Source of the DNA: a phage
Reading direction: 5' to 3' (one strand)
Length of the DNA stretch: 64,000 bases
Sequence record: NC_100327.1
In this document: positions 13,445 to 34,624 of the stretch, one piece after another
Position numbering within the stretch: position 1 is the stretch's first letter
How the letters are laid out: the number at the start of each line of letters is the position of its first letter
Program-made: the position numbers and the translations under genes
Notes under the pieces: generated by a model
Database searches by the model: none
Seen by the model: only the letters and a program-made list of their open reading frames with translations
Told to the model about the DNA's origin: nothing

Positions 13445-15001
13445 TTAATTTTCCATGTTGGATATGGAATTATCTCTGGTTGATGATATTTTAGAAGTGC
13501 CGTTTCCAGTGGATCCTGCAGCCATTCCATCACCAGCCCTACTGATGTCCTGGCCCAAGAGCTTCATCAGCTCTTCCTGATCCATGTCCTCGTCAAATCT
13601 TTCATCAAACCCGCCTACTTCAAGAATCTTATTAATTACTGCAGGAGTTTTTGGCAAGTAACCTACAGCACCGATCCTCTGGACAAACTTGGAGAAGCTC
13701 TCCATGTCCACTTCTTCGATCAGACCAGGTTTCAGTTTAGGCATATCATCATCTTCAAGGATGATACCATTCAATGCCAGAAGCTGTGGGATAAGATCTT
13801 TATTGAAGGCCTCAGTGATAATATCTATATCACGCTGAACAAAATGACCATGGATAGACTGTTTTGACTCAGACAGAGAGAAAGATCCGACGTTATCGTT
13901 ACCGAGGTTAATAAAGCCAGCACCGAAACGGTCAAGAATCGCCTTCTTACGGGCATCAATCAAATCTTTAGTGGAATACTGCTTACCCATACCGTCAACC
14001 CCCTTCAGGGTCATGGAGTAAAGCTCTTTACCAGACTTATCTCTATCAGACGGAAGTATAAAGAAACTTTGCTCACCACTATGGGCGTTTGCTGCGTCAA
14101 GCATAAGGTCTGCAACCATTCTCCCTTCCATTGAATTCGGGTCAATGCTGGCCTTGTTCAAAATATTGGAAGGAATTTTCAGCTCAAGCACACCACCAAG
14201 GTCTTTGGAACAGCCAACAACCTCAAGGTTTTCAATCAGAACTTTCTCACGGAAAGATCTGTAGCAACCTATCATTGGCGACACACCTGCAGGGTTAGAT
14301 TCTGTTCCTGACAGAGTCATGAGCATAAGCTTTTTAGCAGGGATGAAAATTTCAGGCTCATTAAAGCCTTTTGAAGGCATTGCAGCAAGAGGTCCAGCCC
14401 AGCGTGCATTCTGAGTGTTTAGAAATGCATTAGGTGACTGATAAATACCTGTCAGTGTTCTACTATTCTTGTCAAAGACAAACGGCTCTGATCTGGACAA
14501 ACTGGCCTGAGGTCGGAATGCAATTTTATCAATAAGAAGCATCCCGGCATATTTACCTTCTTTCTCTCTGCGGTATACTTTCTCAAACAGTGAAAAACCA
14601 TACTCGTTAAAGGTAGCTGCGCTTCTTGCAATATCTCGAAGAGTTTGTTGGTTTGCCAAATTACGCAAAGAATACTCTATAAGCTCGGCAGCTTTCTTAG
14701 AGTCTTCACTTTTAACATTATAAAGGATCTTAAAATCATTGAATGCTTTCGTGATGAAAACATACTTTGTATCTAAGGCAGTAGCAACTGTGGAATCACA
14801 TTTCATAGTCTCCACTGTAGCAATCAGCTGAGGCCAACGCAATTCCTCAACCATCATAGATTGCGATTCTGCCATAATTTGGGAAAGTGCGCCAGAACCG
14901 ATCTCACTCATACGAACATTATGAGTTGGTGCGCCTGCGTTCCCAGATTTATTCACAGTTTTGGCTGTGGCGTTGTGTTTCCTGCGGTTCTTTTTGGACA
15001 C
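13445..15001 (-). CDS. portal protein
   Basis: 518 aa, GTG start with GAGGGG RBS; size and position between terminase and scaffold. Confidence 0.7.
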   Translation of the reverse strand: MSKKNRRKHNATAKTVNKSGNAGAPTHNVRMSEIGSGALSQIMAESQSMMVEELRWPQLIATVETMKCDSTVATALDTKYVFITKAFNDFKILYNVKSEDSKKAAELIEYSLRNLANQQTLRDIARSAATFNEYGFSLFEKVYRREKEGKYAGMLLIDKIAFRPQASLSRSEPFVFDKNSRTLTGIYQSPNAFLNTQNARWAGPLAAMPSKGFNEPEIFIPAKKLMLMTLSGTESNPAGVSPMIGCYRSFREKVLIENLEVVGCSKDLGGVLELKIPSNILNKASIDPNSMEGRMVADLMLDAANAHSGEQSFFILPSDRDKSGKELYSMTLKGVDGMGKQYSTKDLIDARKKAILDRFGAGFINLGNDNVGSFSLSESKQSIHGHFVQRDIDIITEAFNKDLIPQLLALNGIILEDDDMPKLKPGLIEEVDMESFSKFVQRIGAVGYLPKTPAVINKILEVGGFDERFDEDMDQEELMKLLGQDISRAGDGMAAGSTGNGTSKISSTRDNSISNMEN

Positions 15002-15017
15002 AAGCTTTACCCCTCAA

Positions 15018-15054
15018 AACAGTATAACAAAATAGCCCTCGTGTTAGAGGGCTA
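15018..15054 (-). terminator. hairpin terminator between terminase and portal
   Basis: TAGCCCTC-gtgtta-GAGGGCTA hairpin with adjacent A/T-rich run. Confidence 0.45.
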
Positions 15055-15103
15055 GTATCTCCGATTACTCTATTCTACCACATCTAATTAAGATTGGCAA
15101 CAC

Positions 15104-15910
15104 TTAGATAAAACGCTTGAACATAGAAGGTGATGAGATTGATGGAATCACACAAGGAAGTGCTACCTCCTCTTTCTCCAGGAAATTAATCGCAGAAGCT
15201 ACACAGTCAGCCCAGTCGTCTTTTCTGTTAAATGTTGATCTTTCCCCGTTGAATTTTTCAAGTTCGGTCAGAAATGCTTCCAGAGTATCAGGATGGAAAC
15301 TGGATTTTACAATCCTTACCATTCCTTGTTGGGCAAGATTGGCAAAAGGTGAGAACCTTGTCAGTTTAGACTTGTTGGAAGGCATTGGGTCTTCTTCAAC
15401 CCTAAACCCTTCGGCGAGCAAGGATCTGGAGGAGGTTAAGAACTCACTCTTACCTGCCTGACCGGGGTCCACAGAGAATACGATTATACAATCATCACCA
15501 TCAAACTGCGCCTGTTTCCTGATGATCACATCTCGTTCACCAGCCTTTTTACAGAACTTGCCTTCCAGACCTGTGGAATACCTCCCGTCATCCACGTTCT
15601 CAGGACAATAATCACCGGACAGGTAATAAAAGCCGTCGCTATCTTTACTTACCTTAACACTGGCGGTAAAGTCAGGAAATTTATTACCGGAAGTTCTCTC
15701 GGTTCCTGCCTTATCCCATGCCCTGCAAGATACTGACCCAAGAGGTACTCTATCGGCATCACGAAGGAAAGATCTTTGAAAATAGTTTGCACCCTCAGGC
15801 TTTGCAAACCAGTTACCATGGAGAAGCTGAGCTTTTTCCAGCTCTGGTAGACCTTCGAGGAAAGCAAGGTATTCTGGGTTGTCTCTCAAACAGACAGGAT
15901 TATCGAATCC
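15104..15910 (-). CDS. terL: terminase large subunit, nuclease domain (coding segment 3 of 3)
   Basis: Frame open from 15910 to stop at 15104-15106; no ATG at 5' end (track M is TTG); AWDKAG and DDWADC nuclease-type motifs; 5' boundary approximate. Confidence 0.65.
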   Translation of the reverse strand, partial: GFDNPVCLRDNPEYLAFLEGLPELEKAQLLHGNWFAKPEGANYFQRSFLRDADRVPLGSVSCRAWDKAGTERTSGNKFPDFTASVKVSKDSDGFYYLSGDYCPENVDDGRYSTGLEGKFCKKAGERDVIIRKQAQFDGDDCIIVFSVDPGQAGKSEFLTSSRSLLAEGFRVEEDPMPSNKSKLTRFSPFANLAQQGMVRIVKSSFHPDTLEAFLTELEKFNGERSTFNRKDDWADCVASAINFLEKEEVALPCVIPSISSPSMFKRFI

Positions 15911-16883
15911 TTATATTCAAAGGTGGTCGCAACACCACCCTCCGCACCATTACGTGCTGCTGCATGTTACCATGCAGAGTAGACTATATCACCACCCATC
16001 TCAGGGTGCTTCGCTTTTCGAGCGCCATAAGCTTGCGCCCTACTCCCTCTCGGGATAGTCGTTGAACTACATTACCAATCGTAATTGTTTGAAATATAGG
16101 TGTAAGTCTTACGGTCTTTTATTCCTTTAACAACACTAAAACTTACTCCCCACTTCTTAGCTATTTTATTTACACACAAAACCCTATCACTAAGATCCTC
16201 GCAGATACCTATTATCTTGTGCTCACTTATCCTATTAGAGGTTGGCACTTTTCTAAAGTTAAACTCTTTAGAAATATCTGGGTATACTGAGCCATTCTTT
16301 ATACCACTTACAAGTGGTTGATTGACACCAAACATTTCACAAATGTCTTTTACCCTTGCACCTTGCTCTAACAGCCTACATATTTCAAGAGCAGTGGCAT
16401 CATCTAGGGACCTGTATTTATTGACATAGTCCTTTTTAAGTCCCATTTCATGAGCGTGATGTGTGTTTTCCTCAGGCGTTGTCCACTCAAGGTTCCATGC
16501 GGCGTTATTCAACTTATTACCATCCAGGTGGTTTACTTGAGTTTTCACGCTGGGATTATCATTATCAACAAAAGTCATAGCGATAACTCTATGGACTAGC
16601 ACTTGGAACTTTTTCCCGCCCTCGCACAAAGTGACCATAGCATAGCCAGTCTTTTTCTGCACATTAGGATGGAGGAATTTATTAGAATACAGACTGTAAA
16701 TTCTGCCATCGTATGTAGCACAATAATGATTGTAGCCTAAAAAGCCTAAATTTCTCATTTCAAACATCTCCCTACTACAGGTTCGGAAGGGTAATTATAG
16801 CTGCTGATTGTCCGTTTAGCAATCGGATTTTCCAGCAATTAACGAAGTTATTCGACGTGCATTTCTGCACGAAGCCACTATCA
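15911..16883 (-). mobile_element. intron-like insertion with HNH homing endonuclease ORF (candidate group I intron)
   Basis: About 970 nt between terminase segments 2 and 3; GC-richer non-coding flanks around a free-standing HNH ORF; boundaries approximate. Confidence 0.5.
16072..16767 (-). CDS. HNH homing endonuclease
   Basis: 231 aa, ATG start; NHLDGNKLNN...HH HNH motif and C-terminal DNA-binding helix region. Confidence 0.75.
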   Translation of the reverse strand: MFEMRNLGFLGYNHYCATYDGRIYSLYSNKFLHPNVQKKTGYAMVTLCEGGKKFQVLVHRVIAMTFVDNDNPSVKTQVNHLDGNKLNNAAWNLEWTTPEENTHHAHEMGLKKDYVNKYRSLDDATALEICRLLEQGARVKDICEMFGVNQPLVSGIKNGSVYPDISKEFNFRKVPTSNRISEHKIIGICEDLSDRVLCVNKIAKKWGVSFSVVKGIKDRKTYTYISNNYDW

Positions 16884-17207
16884 TTTAATGGTTGCGCCTA
16901 TAAACGAGAATGACAACGGTCTTGGCTTGATCTCCACACCCAGTCCGTTAACCGTGGTGTATTTCTCTATCAACTCTTCTTTAGAGTCTCCCCAGATAAA
17001 TTCACCGTCGCGTCGGATAAAATATCTTTTCTTACCGCATTTCTCCGGATCTGGATACCCTTCATCGTCCAACCACCATCTAACCAGTTTGGCAAGCATG
17101 TGTTCTGAATCGGGGTTACAGCTGATAACCATTCTTGATGGATACTTTGACTGAGATCGCAGACGAGACATCAGGTAGTCTATCTGCTCCCATTCGAACT
17201 GTGTCGT
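16884..17207 (-). CDS. terL: terminase large subunit (coding segment 2 of 3)
   Basis: Frame open between stops at 17208-17210 and 16881-16883; track ORF 16881..17171; VISCNPD motif-III-like sequence; boundaries approximate. Confidence 0.6.
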
Positions 17208-18087
17208 TTATGTTCGGGCAAGGTCGCTAGTCTTGCCCCGCCATTTTCAGGCAGCTGCATGTCTCCATGCAGACCAGACTATATCTTATGAATGTGCAAA
17301 TACTCTGCCGCTCTAAGAATAGTTTCCTCATCCTCTTGGAAGAAACCTAAAGCTCTGTTGCATTTATCACAAAGCAACCCTCTTACAGCACCAGTTTTAT
17401 GGTCATGATCAACACAAAAGAAATCTCTGTACCCTTGCGTCCTATACTCATCAAGAGATATTCTACAAATGGCACACTTATGATCTTGATCTGAGAGTAG
17501 ACGATAGTATTCATCTTTTGTTATGTGAAATTTCTTCTCAATCTGATAAAACTTTTCACACATCTTACACCTGTTCGTAACCAGATATACTTTACCATAG
17601 TCACGTTTTGTGTAAAAACTATCAGCGAGCATACTTTCATGACAAGATTTGCATTCAAAAAGTTCACCTTTCTTCAGCAAGTCTTGAATAAATAATGCTG
17701 CGTCATCTCTCTTAACCATATTTTTGTTTCTACGAGATCCACCATTCCTGTAGTACATATAGCATTCCTTGCATGTACCTGAGTATCCATCCTTGCTCTT
17801 AGATGATAAAAAGAAATCATCAATAGGTAGAACTCTTTGGCAATCCATACATTTTTTAGTATTACACATTCACCCTCCCGTTTCGAATCGCTTGATTCTA
17901 CGTCTTTCGACTAGTCGTTGAACGTTCATCCTCTCGGATGCTTCGCTGCGGATTATCTAAATTAACACACTGTTACCATACCTTCGATCTCTCTTCGAAG
18001 CCTCTATCATGTTACCATGACAGGTTGGTGGTGTCAATAATAAAGATTTCCCCGCAATTAGGGAGGTTTTACGAGAGCTACAAATTA
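17208..18087 (-). mobile_element. intron-like insertion with Endonuclease-VII-type homing endonuclease ORF (candidate group I intron)
   Basis: About 880 nt between terminase segments 1 and 2; structured non-coding flanks; boundaries approximate. Confidence 0.5.
17279..17869 (-). CDS. Endonuclease VII-family (His-Me finger) homing endonuclease
   Basis: 196 aa, ATG start; multiple CxxC pairs and CVDHDHKTGAVRGLLCDKCN motif. Confidence 0.7.
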   Translation of the reverse strand: MCNTKKCMDCQRVLPIDDFFLSSKSKDGYSGTCKECYMYYRNGGSRRNKNMVKRDDAALFIQDLLKKGELFECKSCHESMLADSFYTKRDYGKVYLVTNRCKMCEKFYQIEKKFHITKDEYYRLLSDQDHKCAICRISLDEYRTQGYRDFFCVDHDHKTGAVRGLLCDKCNRALGFFQEDEETILRAAEYLHIHKI

Positions 18088-18513
18088 ACCCTCATCGAAG
18101 CAAACCATGGTGTACTCAAGCCCCTGATGGTTAAGCTTATCTTGTACATACTCCATATGGCAGTATTTTACAACAGCTCCCTTTTTGCTTCTATCCCACT
18201 TACCAGTGTTCGGATCAAACCGTGGAAAAATGAACTTATGATCCTTCTCTCTGAACTTTGGCTTAATGTTTTCAGGCAGATCACTATAAATAGCTACTGC
18301 TTTAGGCCATAGTCCACCCTCACCTTCCAACTGTGGGGTTGTTCTTCGGAACATAACCACAGAGCTGTGGGGGTCATCAATAATTTTAAGTGGCATCAAC
18401 TGCAAGAGGAACGACTTGCCAGACCCTGCGGCACCGCCGATTACCAAAATATCTGCATCGTTTTCTAGGATCATCTTCTGCTTTTCAGAACACGGTCCGT
18501 AAATCTTAGACAT
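18088..18513 (-). CDS. terL: terminase large subunit, ATPase N-terminus (coding segment 1 of 3)
   Basis: ATG with AAGGAGAGAGG RBS; Walker A GGAAGSGKS; Walker B MVCFDEG followed at once by an in-frame stop. Confidence 0.75.
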
Positions 18514-18800
18514 TAACCTCTCTCCTTTGGAAACAGTGTTCTAATATAGTCTTGCAAAATGATCAATTTAGCTCTATCATTGCTACAAGACAGATTATTA
18601 TCCCTCATAATGCCAGAATTCACTGCATCTGGCGCACCTTTCTTCAAAGGCATAGCTTTAGCAGGTGGTTTCATGGCACCTTCCGGGGGTTTAACAATCA
18701 ACCTTCCTACATCCGGAGGGTCAATCTTGTATTCTCTCTCAACGCTGGTTGCACACCCACATAATAACAAGCACACAATAAACAGTGTAGCAACTCTCAT
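18513..18800 (-). CDS. o-spanin (Rz1-like outer-membrane lipoprotein)
   Basis: 95 aa; lipoprotein-type signal with LLLCGC; proline-rich mature region; ATG overlaps i-spanin stop (ATGA). Confidence 0.55.
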   Translation of the reverse strand: MRVATLFIVCLLLCGCATSVEREYKIDPPDVGRLIVKPPEGAMKPPAKAMPLKKGAPDAVNSGIMRDNNLSCSNDRAKLIILQDYIRTLFPKERG

Positions 18801-19616: not shown

Positions 19617-19693
19617 TGGTCTCCACGGAGTGATTCGAACACTCGACCTCCTGATCCCAAATCAGGCGCTCTACCAAGCTGAGCTACGCGGAG
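19617..19693 (-). tRNA. tRNA-Pro (anticodon TGG)
   Basis: Hand-folded cloverleaf: 7-bp acceptor with C1-G72, D-arm, anticodon loop TTTGGGA, T-loop TTCGAAT, encoded CCA. Confidence 0.75.
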
Positions 19694-19703
19694 TATTTAT
19701 TAT

Positions 19704-19779
19704 TTGGTGGCCCTGGGTGGAATTGAACCACCGTCTGGCGATTATGAGTCGCTTGCTTGAACCTTCCAGCTACAGGGCC
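19704..19779 (-). tRNA. tRNA with CAT anticodon (Met, or Ile if lysidine-modified)
   Basis: Acceptor GGCCCTG/CAGGGCC, anticodon loop CTCATAA, T-arm GGTGG-TTCAATT-CCACC, CCA encoded. Confidence 0.75.
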
Positions 19780-19780
19780 A

Positions 19781-19856
19781 TGGTGCTGATGGCAGGACTT
19801 GAACCCGCAACCTATTGATTACAAATCAATTGCACTACCGATTGTGCTACATCAGC
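19781..19856 (-). tRNA. tRNA-Thr (anticodon TGT)
   Basis: Perfect acceptor GCTGATG/CATCAGC, anticodon loop TTTGTAA, T-loop TTCAAGT, CCA encoded. Confidence 0.8.
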
Positions 19857-19860
19857 AAAA

Positions 19861-19959
19861 AGGTGCTAGGTGATGGAATCGAACCACCTATGTATTCAAC
19901 GACTACCTCGTCTATTTTCAGGATTAAAAATCCTCGCCCTTGCCAAAGGGCTTACCTAG
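19861..19959 (-). tRNA. aberrant tRNA-like element with Lys (TTT) anticodon loop and ~25-nt insertion
   Basis: About 99 nt: perfect acceptor GCTAGGT/ACCTAGC, D-arm GCCC-TTTGGCAA-GGGC, anticodon loop TTTTTAA, T-arm GGTGG-TTCGATT-CCATC; extra hairpin GACGA-ggtag-TCGTT between anticodon and T arms; 3' end ACC not CCA. Confidence 0.4.
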
Positions 19960-20057
19960 CTCAGTATGTTGACCATGTTGCTAGTCGGCGATGACGACTG
20001 TAACATTTGATAATCCGGTTCTGCTTCCGACTTTCGCTTAATTACAAGGTCAACAAT

Positions 20058-20148
20058 GTGGCGGAGAGTAATGGAATCGAACCATCATCGAGTCATCCTC
20101 AACGGGACGGTTTTCAAGACCGCTTGAGCACCATTGCTCCCTACCCTC
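20058..20148 (-). tRNA. tRNA-Ser (anticodon TGA), type II
   Basis: Acceptor GGAGGGT/ACTCTCC with one G-U, anticodon loop CTTGAAA, long variable arm, T-loop TTCGATT, CCA encoded. Confidence 0.65.
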
Positions 20149-20263
20149 CTTTATAAATTATACTGATAATGACACTGATTTTCGAGCAGTTAGTGACTAG
20201 TATAAACGACGATAAATATCAATGCCATTATCTGTATTATTTATGCATCTAAAAATATAAATT

Positions 20264-20350
20264 TGGTGGGGAGTGGTGGAGTCGAACCACCCGAGTCGCA
20301 ATGACAATAGATTTACAGTCTACACCGCTACCTCTACGGGATAACTCCCC
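20264..20350 (-). tRNA. tRNA-Tyr (anticodon GTA), type II
   Basis: Acceptor GGGGAGT/ACTCCCC, anticodon loop CTGTAAA, long variable arm, T-arm GGTGG-TTCGACT-CCACC, CCA encoded. Confidence 0.75.
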
Positions 20351-20354
20351 AATT

Positions 20355-20429
20355 TGGCACCCCGTACTGGACTCGAACCAGTGTCAACGGCTTAGAAGGC
20401 CGCTGCTTTATCCACTAAGCTAACAGGGC
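20355..20429 (-). tRNA. tRNA-Arg (anticodon TCT)
   Basis: Acceptor with two G-U pairs, D-loop AGTGGATA, anticodon loop CTTCTAA, T-arm ACTGG-TTCGAGT-CCAGT, CCA encoded. Confidence 0.75.
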
Positions 20430-34067: not shown

Positions 34068-34624
34068 GAAAGAAAGCTGTCAAAGCCCCCGTTCATAGCG
34101 GGTGGCTAAAAGATTCTAAGGACATAGCCAACTTTCGAAAAGAATTGTCAGAGGAGCAGGATGGTCTTGATCCGATCTTGTGCGAGCCACTTCGTAAGCC
34201 TTGTTTAGATCATGATCATCTGACTGGTCGTTGCAGGGGTGTTTTGTCTCAGTGCACTAATACCTTTGAGGGGTATGTGCTTAAATACTGGATGAAATAC
34301 TGTAACGAGTATACAGATTGCAGTTTATCAGAGGCGTTGCGCCGGATGGCTGACTATCTGGAGAAAGACTACAGCGACTTCCCGCTCCACAAAAACTACA
34401 GAGATGATATGACAAAGTTCTTGAGGAGATGCTCTAAAGCTACGATTATTGCACGAGCAGAATCAGATCTCAATCTTGTCATTAATCCAGAGTGCACCAA
34501 GCATGAGGCTATTGAGTCCTACATGCAGGAGTTTATAAAGAAAACTGAGGAGAGAGATTTCTATGGGGATGAAAAAGGTATTCAATCCTTGCGACTCAGT
34601 CCTGATCAGGATGAAATACCGTAA
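34019..34624 (+). CDS. Endonuclease VII-like junction-resolving enzyme
   Basis: Track ORF starts at TTG inside the RuvC-like gene; no in-frame ATG/GTG before the catalytic motif CLDHDHLTGRCRGVLSQC, so true start is uncertain. Confidence 0.55.
   Translation: MDRQGASGGVIAKRKIRKKAVKAPVHSGWLKDSKDIANFRKELSEEQDGLDPILCEPLRKPCLDHDHLTGRCRGVLSQCTNTFEGYVLKYWMKYCNEYTDCSLSEALRRMADYLEKDYSDFPLHKNYRDDMTKFLRRCSKATIIARAESDLNLVINPECTKHEAIESYMQEFIKKTEERDFYGDEKGIQSLRLSPDQDEIP

What the first reader, a model, noticed from the sequence alone, without database searches (positions are those of the whole stretch)
15104..18513. Terminase large subunit gene interrupted by two intron-like insertions, each with a different HNH-family homing endonuclease
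Three minus-strand frames encode, in order, a terminase ATPase N-terminus (Walker A GGAAGSGKS, Walker B MVCFDEG then an immediate stop), a middle piece with VISCNPD, and a nuclease domain (AWDKAG, DDWADC). Only the first has a start codon and RBS. They are separated by ~880 and ~970 nt, each holding a free-standing endonuclease ORF (Endo VII-type 17279..17869; HNH 16072..16767) flanked by GC-richer non-coding sequence. The simplest reading is one gene split by two self-splicing introns, about 518 aa after splicing. Exact splice junctions cannot be set by eye.
Basis: partly seen in the sequence, partly recalled or inferred. Interest (0 to 1): 0.75.

Follow-up and report, generated by a model that had tools for sequence, protein, structure and literature searches.

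The report
Two group I introns in terminase
[quoted passage not shown] The reading is correct, but the arrangement was already published for phage rV5 in 2013.

Summary
The window is a Vequintavirus (rV5-like coliphage), 99.1% identical here to phiWec193.

- **Gene structure.** The minus-strand terminase large subunit (TerL) gene has three exons: 18513..18088, 17204..16888 and 15908..15104. Intron 1 is 18087..17205 (883 nt) and intron 2 is 16887..15909 (979 nt).
- **Splice junctions.** I fixed them to the base by comparison with relatives that lack each intron. The spliced product is 515 aa and matches the uninterrupted TerL of phage Murica at 513/515 residues with no gaps.
- **Group I identity.** Both 5' exons end in U, which pairs with G in P1. 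Both introns end in G. Rfam's group I model (gathering score 50) scores the window copies only 47 and 34.9/24.3 bits, because of the ORF insertions. ORF-less copies at the same sites in relatives score 79–93 bits.
- **Endonuclease genes.** The Endo VII-type gene sits in the P8 loop of intron 1. The I-HmuI-like HNH gene replaces the P6 hairpin of intron 2.
- **Population.** Public Vequintavirus records show 8 of the 9 possible combinations of absent, ORF-less and ORF-carrying introns.

Kropinski et al. 2013 described the split rV5 TerL, and GenBank annotates it as a three-part join. This is a well-supported but ordinary, already known feature.

The parts
18088..18513 (-). TerL exon 1 (426 nt, residues 1-142). 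Holds Walker A (GGAAGSGKS) and Walker B (MVCFDE). It ends ...GAG GGT, and its last base U pairs with G in P1.
18517..18527 (-). Shine-Dalgarno sequence (AAGGAGAGAGG) of TerL. The stop codon of the upstream o-spanin gene overlaps the TerL start (TAATG).
   Evidence: gene names
17205..18087 (-). Intron 1, group I, 883 nt. It begins UAA, so unspliced RNA stops at once, and it ends ...AAACG (terminal G). P1 is GAGGGUUA/UAGCUCUC with U.G at the splice site. P3 is CCUCCC/GGGAGG, P7 is GACUA/UAGUC and P8 is GAAUGUGUAA/UUGCACAUUC. Two small hairpins lie between P7 5' and P3 3', in the P7.1/P7.2 position.
17279..17869 (-). Endonuclease gene 1, Endo VII-type, 196 aa, in the P8 loop of intron 1. Its SD (GGGAGG) is the 3' strand of P3 and its AUG lies in the 5' strand of P8. 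Its stop codon UAG lies inside the conserved P7 3' element (GAUAUAGUC). The ORF-specific segment 17290..17871 is replaced by 18 nt in rV5.
16888..17204 (-). TerL exon 2 (317 nt, residues 143 to 248). Holds VISCNPD. It starts ACA CAG and ends ...ACC AT.
15909..16887 (-). Intron 2, group I, 979 nt. It begins UAAAUGA, giving an in-frame stop three codons after the splice site, and ends ...UAUAAGG. P1 is CCAU/GUGG with U.G at the splice site. P3 is CUUCGUU/AGCGAAG and P7 is GACUA/UAGUC. P7.1/P7.2-like hairpins follow P7 5'.
16068..16799 (-). Endonuclease cassette of intron 2 (732 nt). It replaces the 22-nt P6 hairpin of the ORF-less intron. Its own ends (CUAUAAUUACC / GGUAAUGUAG) can re-form a P6 stem.
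16072..16767 (-). Endonuclease gene 2, HNH type related to I-HmuI, 231 aa, with a C-terminal helix-turn-helix region.
16794..16822 (-). Sigma-70-like TTGCTA-17-TATAAT, 27 nt upstream of the endonuclease 2 start codon. It is present in the four ORF-carrying alleles examined and absent from the two ORF-less ones. This is a lead only.
15104..15908 (-). TerL exon 3 (805 nt including the stop). Encodes the end of the ATPase domain and the RNase H-like nuclease domain (AWDKAG, DDWADC).
15033..15054 (-). Intrinsic-terminator-like hairpin followed by a T run, after TerL. rV5 annotates a terminator at the equivalent place.

Best explanation
One essential gene, the terminase large subunit of a Vequintavirus (rV5-like myophage of E. 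coli), is interrupted by two group I self-splicing introns.

The gene is transcribed as one pre-mRNA. Unspliced RNA can only yield truncated protein, because intron 1 begins with UAA and intron 2 gives a stop three codons after the splice site. Each intron folds into the group I core (P1 to P9) and is excised by the usual two guanosine-initiated transesterifications. This joins GGU|ACA and CAU|AUU and gives a 515-aa TerL.

Each intron carries a separate mobile passenger in a peripheral loop. Intron 1 holds an Endo VII-type nuclease gene in P8. Intron 2 holds an I-HmuI-like HNH nuclease gene in place of P6. By analogy with characterised phage intron endonucleases, these enzymes cut or nick intron-less TerL alleles during mixed infection. 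Repair from the intron-bearing genome then copies the intron, or just the ORF cassette, into the rival genome.

Shown here: the intron cores, the exact junctions, restoration of the reading frame, the nuclease families, and the presence/absence polymorphism. Inferred: actual splicing, nuclease activity and target sites.
For: - **Group I model.** Rfam RF00028 matches both gaps over the full model length. ORF-less copies at identical positions score 84.9, 84.1 and 79.4 bits for intron 1 and 92.7 and 87.5 bits for intron 2, against a gathering score of 50.
- **Core intact in the window.** The window's intron 2 core is near-identical to the ORF-less copies outside the P5 loop and the cassette. Its intron 1 flanks are 98.8% and 97.4% identical to rV5.
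- **Junctions.** They are defined by phages lacking intron 1 (ECML-10) or intron 2 (navn). U precedes each 5' splice site and G ends each intron.
- **Helices.** P1, P3, P7, P8 and P6 were verified base by base.
- **Spliced product.** The spliced CDS is 1548 nt, the same length as Murica's uninterrupted TerL, and is 513/515 identical with no gaps. Terminase_6N matches continuously across the junctions.
- **Nucleases.** Endonuclease 1 scores 76 bits on PF02945 and matches Hpy99I and T4 Endo VII. Endonuclease 2 matches I-HmuI (1U3E) at E 4e-12.
- **Population.** Eight of nine intron/ORF states occur among Vequintavirus records. One representative of each state was checked at sequence level.
- **Relatives of the cores.** Intron 1's 3' core is 83.5% identical over 79 nt to the T4 td intron. 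Intron 2's core is 73-75% identical over about 190 nt to Bacillus phage introns, including SPbeta bnrdE.
- **Literature.** The rV5 paper describes TerL as split into three segments by introns (PMC3606486). A TerL intron in the related Certrevirus CB7 splices by RT-PCR (PMC7344957).
Against: - The window's own Rfam scores (47; 34.9 and 24.3) are below the gathering score of 50. I attribute this to the 580-730 nt ORF insertions, but could not rescore an ORF-deleted window sequence.
- I found no splicing experiment for any Vequintavirus in the searchable literature. The rV5 claim rests on BLASTX and expert inspection.
- Not every HNH-associated insertion in a phage gene splices. One CB7 insertion and Aeh1 nrdA do not.
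- The relatives are 95-99% identical, so there is no covariation evidence for the helices.
Confidence: 0.93

Rival explanations
1. The gene is split by endonuclease insertions and is not spliced. The three pieces are translated separately and assemble into an active terminase, as reported for Aeh1 NrdA split by mobE.
For: Unspliced split genes with HNH insertions exist (PMC7344957). Many GenBank records annotate the pieces as separate 'terminase large subunit' CDSs.
Against: Exons 2 and 3 have no start codon with a Shine-Dalgarno sequence at their 5' ends. Complete group I cores flank both ORFs. ORF-less introns of about 270-320 nt still interrupt the gene in many viable isolates, which only makes sense if they splice. 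Intron 1 cuts immediately after the Walker B Asp-Glu.
Confidence: 0.03
2. One or both introns in this particular genome are splicing-defective, so TerL is a pseudogene in a defective or misassembled genome.
For: The window copies score below Rfam's gathering score. Splicing is untested.
Against: Six public records hold the same double-ORF arrangement at 98-99% identity. Two of them are annotated E. coli phage isolates (phiWec193 and phiWec196). The other four are UNVERIFIED 'Campylobacter phage' records. All core helices checked are intact. The exons are 99.6% identical at protein level to an uninterrupted TerL, with no frameshifts. TerL function is needed for packaging in tailed phages (established knowledge).
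Confidence: 0.03
3. The insertions are inteins or group II introns rather than group I introns.
For: None beyond the fact that the gene is interrupted.
Against: The insertions open with stop codons and are out of frame, so they cannot be inteins. No group II family matched at E up to 10 in the region. The only intron family hit was RF00028. No reverse-transcriptase ORF is present.
Confidence: 0.01

Closest known systems
Introns in the TerL gene of Escherichia phage rV5 (Kropinski et al. 2013, Virol J 10:76, PMC3606486; GenBank DQ832317, ORF64ABC, a three-part join)
   Same: Same gene and same two insertion sites, with about 98% nucleotide identity. Intron 2 carries the same HNH endonuclease gene.
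   Different: rV5's intron 1 has no ORF. The 582-nt Endo VII segment of the window is replaced by 18 nt that form a short P8 hairpin. The window's double-ORF form matches phiWec193 and phiWec196, where all pieces are annotated only as hypothetical proteins.
T4 td intron with I-TevI (the classic phage subgroup IA group I intron)
   Same: Group I core with extra hairpins after P7, and an endonuclease ORF looped out of a peripheral helix. Intron 1's 3' core is 83.5% identical over 79 nt to the td intron.
   Different: It sits in a different host gene (thymidylate synthase). Its endonuclease belongs to another family (GIY-YIG), and its ORF is in P6 rather than P8. The last three points are from my own knowledge, not tested here.
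SPO1 DNA polymerase intron with I-HmuI (PDB 1U3E)
   Same: Endonuclease 2 is a homologue, E 4.1e-12 over residues 11-154, with the HNH motif conserved.
   Different: It sits in a different host gene. Endonuclease 2 is longer (231 versus 174 aa), with an additional C-terminal helix-turn-helix region. Nicking versus double-strand cutting is unknown here.
Other phage TerL group I introns: Lactobacillus phage LL-H, Bastillevirinae (up to three introns per TerL), Certrevirus CB7
   Same: Group I introns with endonuclease ORFs interrupt TerL, and multi-intron TerL genes exist. Splicing has been shown by RT-PCR or sequencing in CB7 and SIOphi.
   Different: The phage lineages differ. I did not compare the insertion sites. 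SIOphi mainly skips an internal exon, which has not been examined for Vequintavirus.

Membership tests
Group I catalytic intron (Rfam RF00028) | Conserved catalytic core (P3-P8 with the R and S elements that form P7) scoring at or above the curated threshold | tested here: met
   The window copies score 47 bits, and 34.9 plus 24.3 bits, below the gathering score of 50 because of the ORF insertions. The same introns without ORFs at the same sites score 79.4-92.7 bits. The window's intron 2 core is near-identical to those copies outside the P5 loop and the cassette. Its intron 1 flanks are 98.8% and 97.4% identical to rV5.
Group I catalytic intron (Rfam RF00028) | The 5' exon ends in U, which forms a U.G wobble in P1 with the internal guide sequence, and the intron ends in G | tested here: met
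   Intron 1: GAGGGU|UA pairs with UAGCUCUC, and the intron ends AAACG. Intron 2: CCAU| pairs with GUGG, and the intron ends UAAGG.
Group I catalytic intron (Rfam RF00028) | Precise excision restores an uninterrupted reading frame | tested here: met
   The spliced CDS is 1548 nt. The 515-aa product is 513/515 identical, with no gaps, to Murica TerL encoded by an intron-less gene.
Group I catalytic intron (Rfam RF00028) | Guanosine-dependent self-splicing of the RNA | not testable with these tools
   This needs in vitro transcription with GTP and Mg2+, or RT-PCR from infected cells.
Subgroup IA group I introns (typical phage introns) | Extra helices P7.1 and P7.2 between P7 5' and P3 3' | tested here: inconclusive
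   Two hairpins occupy that position in each intron. Intron 1 has GUCGAAAGAC and GAAUCAAGCGAUUC. Intron 2 has UCCCGAGAGGGA and GGCGC..GCGCU. This rests on inspection only. Similarity to the td and SPbeta bnrdE introns supports it.
HNH homing endonuclease, I-HmuI type | HNH (beta-beta-alpha-metal) catalytic motif | tested here: met
   PF13392 scores 28.0 bits against a cutoff of 24.8. I-HmuI (1U3E) matches at E 4.1e-12, with the ..NHLDGNKLNN..NLEW.. motif aligned. PHROG 59 matches at E 7.8e-51.
HNH homing endonuclease, I-HmuI type | Site-specific cleavage or nicking of the intron-less allele, and intron homing | not testable with these tools
   The evidence is indirect only. The ORF cassette is present or absent as a precise unit among near-identical phages.
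Endonuclease VII family (PF02945) used as an intron endonuclease | Endo VII catalytic core (C..DHDH…N, zinc-binding cysteines) | tested here: met
   PF02945 scores 76 bits against a cutoff of 23.6. Hpy99I matches at E 9.6e-06 and T4 Endo VII at E 5.9e-04. The VDHDHKTGAVRGLLCDKCN motif is aligned in the Hpy99I alignment, the only one shown.
Terminase large subunit, T4-type (Terminase_6N + Terminase_6C) | N-terminal ATPase with Walker A and B motifs plus a C-terminal RNase H-like nuclease in one polypeptide | tested here: met
   The spliced protein scores 72.2 bits on PF03237 over residues 25-294 and 27.9 bits on PF17289 over residues 394-489. No PDB sequence relative was found by phmmer.

The most novel reading that the evidence does not exclude
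Near-identical Vequintavirus genomes carry 8 of the 9 possible states of two introns and their endonuclease cassettes in one essential gene. Occupied and empty alleles also show fixed synonymous differences right at the insertion sites: T versus C at -1 and A versus G at +3 of site 1, and C versus A at -3 of site 2.

This could mean the full homing cycle is running now in this phage population. The empty alleles would be cleavage-resistant variants. The two nucleases would act as weapons that damage the TerL gene of co-infecting intron-less relatives, as recalled (not retrieved or checked here) for an intron endonuclease in PhiKZ-like phages.
Probability: 0.3. Interest if true: 0.45.

Novelty: already known. 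Interest (0 to 1): 0.2.

Why it matters
- **Annotation.** Many public records list the TerL pieces as separate 'terminase' or 'hypothetical' CDSs. The base-exact junctions given here allow a correct three-part join.
- **Biology.** The Vequintavirus TerL locus is a compact natural series. Each intron occurs as absent, ORF-less or ORF-carrying in phages with 95-99% identical exons. That makes it a convenient system for studying intron and endonuclease gain and loss, and possible phage-phage interference. None of this is new in kind.

Tried and rejected
- **Rfam at gathering thresholds on the whole window** found only tRNAs. The introns appeared only in E-value mode.
- **Rescoring an ORF-deleted window intron** was not possible, because Infernal is not available in the script sandbox and the Rfam tool reads only stored loci. 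I used natural ORF-less homologues instead.
- **PDB sequence search with the spliced TerL** returned no meaningful relative, so I did not map the motifs onto a structure.
- **Covariation analysis** was not attempted. The homologous introns are 96-99% identical and carry no compensatory changes.
- **Promoter scan.** The number of sigma-70-like sites (13) is not above the shuffled expectation (9.7 ± 2.8), so the site upstream of endonuclease 2 is only a lead.
- **Other group I introns in the window.** A whole-window E-value scan found none.
- **Alternatives rejected.** Inteins, group II introns and a non-spliced split gene were considered and rejected (see the rival explanations).
Full report
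**What the window is**

Region 15000-18600 is 99.1% identical over its full length to Escherichia phages phiWec193 and phiWec196. It is 95-99% identical, in pieces, to more than 120 other Vequintavirus (rV5-like) records. The gene order on the minus strand is i-spanin, o-spanin, TerL, terminator, portal.

**Checking the observation**

The ORF list reproduces the three minus-strand pieces (18085..18513, 16881..17171, 15104..15889) and the two free-standing ORFs (17279..17869, 16072..16767). Pfam places the three pieces on successive parts of the T4-type terminase profiles:

| Piece | Pfam family | Profile positions |
|---|---|---|
| 18085..18513 | Terminase_6N | 2-104 |
| 16881..17171 | Terminase_6N | 117-163 |
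| 15104..15889 | Terminase_6C | 60-153 |

The two inserts hit Endonuclease_7 (76 bits) and HNH_3 (28 bits).

**Are the gaps introns?**

At Rfam's gathering thresholds the window shows only tRNAs. In E-value mode the only intron family found is RF00028, group I:

- A full-length match at 17255..18097 scores 47 bits (E 4.7e-10).
- Two partial matches at 15960..16198 (34.9 bits) and 16536..16897 (24.3 bits) cover the two ends of the second gap.

These sub-threshold scores come from the 580-730 nt ORFs looped out of the cores. Relatives carry the same introns at the same sites without ORFs, and those copies clear the gathering score of 50:

| Intron | Phage (locus) | Bits |
|---|---|---|
| 1 | rV5 (L001) | 84.9 |
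| 1 | A135 (L006) | 84.1 |
| 1 | LL12 (L008) | 79.4 |
| 2 | VB-EcoM-WM (L005) | 92.7 |
| 2 | A135 (L006) | 87.5 |

. The window's intron 2 core is near-identical to those copies outside the P5 loop and the ORF cassette. Its intron 1 flanks are 98.8% and 97.4% identical to rV5.

**Exact junctions**

Phage ECML-10 lacks intron 1 and reads ...GATGAGGGC|ACGCAGTTCGAA.... The window reads ...GATGAGGGT[intron]ACACAGTTCGAA.... Phage navn lacks intron 2 and reads ...GGCGCAACAAT|ATTCGATAATCC.... The window reads ...GGCGCAACCAT[intron]ATTCGATAATCC.... This gives:

| Element | Coordinates | Length |
|---|---|---|
| Exon 1 | 18513..18088 | 426 nt |
| Intron 1 | 18087..17205 | 883 nt |
| Exon 2 | 17204..16888 | 317 nt |
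| Intron 2 | 16887..15909 | 979 nt |
| Exon 3 | 15908..15104 | 805 nt |

Both 5' exons end in U and both introns end in G, as group I chemistry requires. The joined CDS is 1548 nt, exactly the length of the uninterrupted TerL gene of phage Murica. The 515-aa product is 513/515 identical to Murica TerL with no gaps. On the spliced protein, Terminase_6N matches continuously over residues 25-294 at 72.2 bits, crossing both junctions.

Intron 1 lies directly after the Walker B Asp-Glu (…MVCFDEG|TQFE…). Intron 2 lies in the conserved …FIGATI|FDNP… segment.

**Anatomy of the introns**

I checked the helices base by base.

- **Intron 1.** P1 is GAGGGUUA/UAGCUCUC with U.G at the splice site. P3 is CCUCCC/GGGAGG and P7 is GACUA/UAGUC. 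P8 is a 10-bp stem, GAAUGUGUAA/UUGCACAUUC, that closes the loop holding the Endo VII ORF.
- **How endonuclease gene 1 overlaps the core.** Its Shine-Dalgarno sequence (GGGAGG) is the 3' strand of P3 and its AUG is in the 5' strand of P8. Its stop codon is the UAG inside the conserved GAUAUAGUC element. The ORF therefore overlaps the ribozyme core at both ends. Folding of the intron would be expected to hide its translation signals (inference).
- **Comparison with rV5.** The 582-nt ORF segment (17871..17290) is replaced by 18 nt that form a short P8 hairpin.
- **Intron 2.** P1 is CCAU/GUGG, P3 is CUUCGUU/AGCGAAG and P7 is GACUA/UAGUC. The 732-nt cassette 16799..16068 replaces the 22-nt P6 hairpin of the ORF-less form. 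The cassette's own ends (CUAUAAUUACC / GGUAAUGUAG) can re-form a P6 stem.
- **Subgroup.** Both introns have two small hairpins between P7 5' and P3 3', the position of P7.1 and P7.2 in subgroup IA. This rests on inspection only.
- **Relatives of the cores.** Intron 1's 3' core is 83.5% identical over 79 nt to the T4 td intron. About 190 nt are 73% identical to introns of PhiKZ-like Pseudomonas phages. Intron 2's core is 73-75% identical over about 190 nt to Bacillus phage introns, including SPbeta bnrdE.

**The endonucleases**

- **Endonuclease 1 (196 aa).** It matches PF02945, restriction enzyme Hpy99I (E 9.6e-06) and T4 Endo VII (E 5.9e-04). The DHDH…N catalytic stretch is aligned in the Hpy99I alignment, the only one shown. 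By tblastn, 29 phage records hold a copy at 95% identity or more. This equals the 6 + 23 records classed as carrying endonuclease 1 in the census below.
- **Endonuclease 2 (231 aa).** It matches I-HmuI (1U3E) at E 4.1e-12, with the HNH motif conserved, and has a C-terminal helix-turn-helix region.

Both look intact. Their activity and targets are untested.

**Population picture**

I sorted the megablast hits by the fraction of the query covered. I then checked one representative of each class at sequence level.

| Intron 1 | Intron 2 | Records |
|---|---|---|
| With ORF | With ORF | 6 |
| ORF-less | With ORF | 4 (includes rV5) |
| Absent | With ORF | 3 |
| With ORF | Absent | 23 |
| ORF-less | ORF-less | 4 |
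| ORF-less | Absent | 14 |
| Absent | ORF-less | 4 |
| Absent | Absent | about 70 |

. That is 8 of 9 possible states. Only intron 1 with ORF combined with ORF-less intron 2 was not seen. These are record counts, not independent isolates, because GenBank/RefSeq duplicates and near-identical records are included.

In nine aligned alleles, three synonymous sites next to the insertion points track occupancy perfectly:

| CDS position | Location | Occupied alleles | Empty alleles |
|---|---|---|---|
| 426 | -1 of site 1 | T | C |
| 429 | +3 of site 1 | A | G |
| 741 | -3 of site 2 | C | A |

The bases at 426 and 741 in occupied alleles are the ones that pair in P1. The pattern therefore fits a splicing requirement, co-conversion during homing, and possibly cleavage resistance of the empty alleles. 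The sample is small and the sequences are related.

**Comparison with the literature**

- Kropinski et al. 2013 have a section 'Introns in terminase'. It states that rV5 TerL is divided into three segments, one insertion containing a homing endonuclease, and it thanks D. Shub for locating the intron (PMC3606486).
- The rV5 GenBank record annotates TerL as a three-part join. LL12 annotates an intron-containing TerL.
- The paper on the BASEL phage collection says intron boundaries were annotated (PMC8594841).
- TerL introns are also known in LL-H, in Bastillevirinae (up to three per gene, with exon skipping in SIOphi) and in Certrevirus CB7, where splicing was confirmed by RT-PCR.
- I found no splicing experiment for a Vequintavirus.

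**Verdict**

The feature is already known. The double-ORF form seen here is a common population variant of the published rV5 arrangement. Interest is low for discovery. It has modest value for annotation and as a natural series for studying the intron homing cycle.

Noticed in passing
window 19862-19960 (-), within the tRNA cluster 19617-20429: A seventh tRNA-like gene of 99 nt. ARAGORN calls it 'tRNA-???' with a four-base anticodon (atcc), and Rfam's tRNA model gives 35.5 bits (gathering score 29). It lies between tRNA-Thr and tRNA-Ser. The rV5 record annotates only six tRNAs and nothing at this position. It has a normal acceptor and T arm but a long extra region. It could be a degenerate tRNA or an odd one.
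   Followed up: partly
search hits; e.g. MG065662, MG065690 (L006): Eighteen records named 'Campylobacter phage' (host C. jejuni, chicken, flagged UNVERIFIED and unannotated) are 97-98% identical to this E. coli Vequintavirus locus. They are classified under Vequintavirus. The host label looks doubtful.
   Followed up: no
window 16794-16822 (-): A sigma-70-like TTGCTA-17-TATAAT lies 27 nt upstream of the HNH endonuclease start codon. The -10 box is the first six bases of the ORF cassette and the -35 box is in the P5 loop. Both hexamers are present in all four ORF-carrying alleles examined and absent from both ORF-less alleles. The overall count of such sites in the region is not above chance.
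   Followed up: partly
window ~34100-34500 (+): A separate ORF contains an Endo VII-like motif (…CLDHDHLTGRCRGVLSQCTNTFEG…). It was found as a weak tblastn match to the intron endonuclease (E 0.013; translation). It may be the phage's own resolvase or another free-standing nuclease.
   Followed up: no
window 16031-16067 and 17875-17927: Short stretches of the intron cores are 89-97% identical to unrelated phages. The matches are about 92-kb Pseudomonas phages such as PseuPha1 and SPA01, and Vibrio phage D181. This points to a shared pool of group I intron cores across phage families.
   Followed up: partly
phiWec191 LC739540 35181-35307; SYGMH1 MW883061 79212-79292: Other Vequintavirus genomes carry related group I intron cores in other genes, for example anaerobic ribonucleotide reductase. 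No such extra intron was detected in this window.
   Followed up: no
Yersinia phage Yep-phi NC_023715 13987-14333: An Endo VII-like coding stretch lies directly beside a group I core similar to intron 2, inside the DNA polymerase gene of a T7-like phage. Endo VII-type ORFs therefore recur as passengers of this intron lineage.
   Followed up: no
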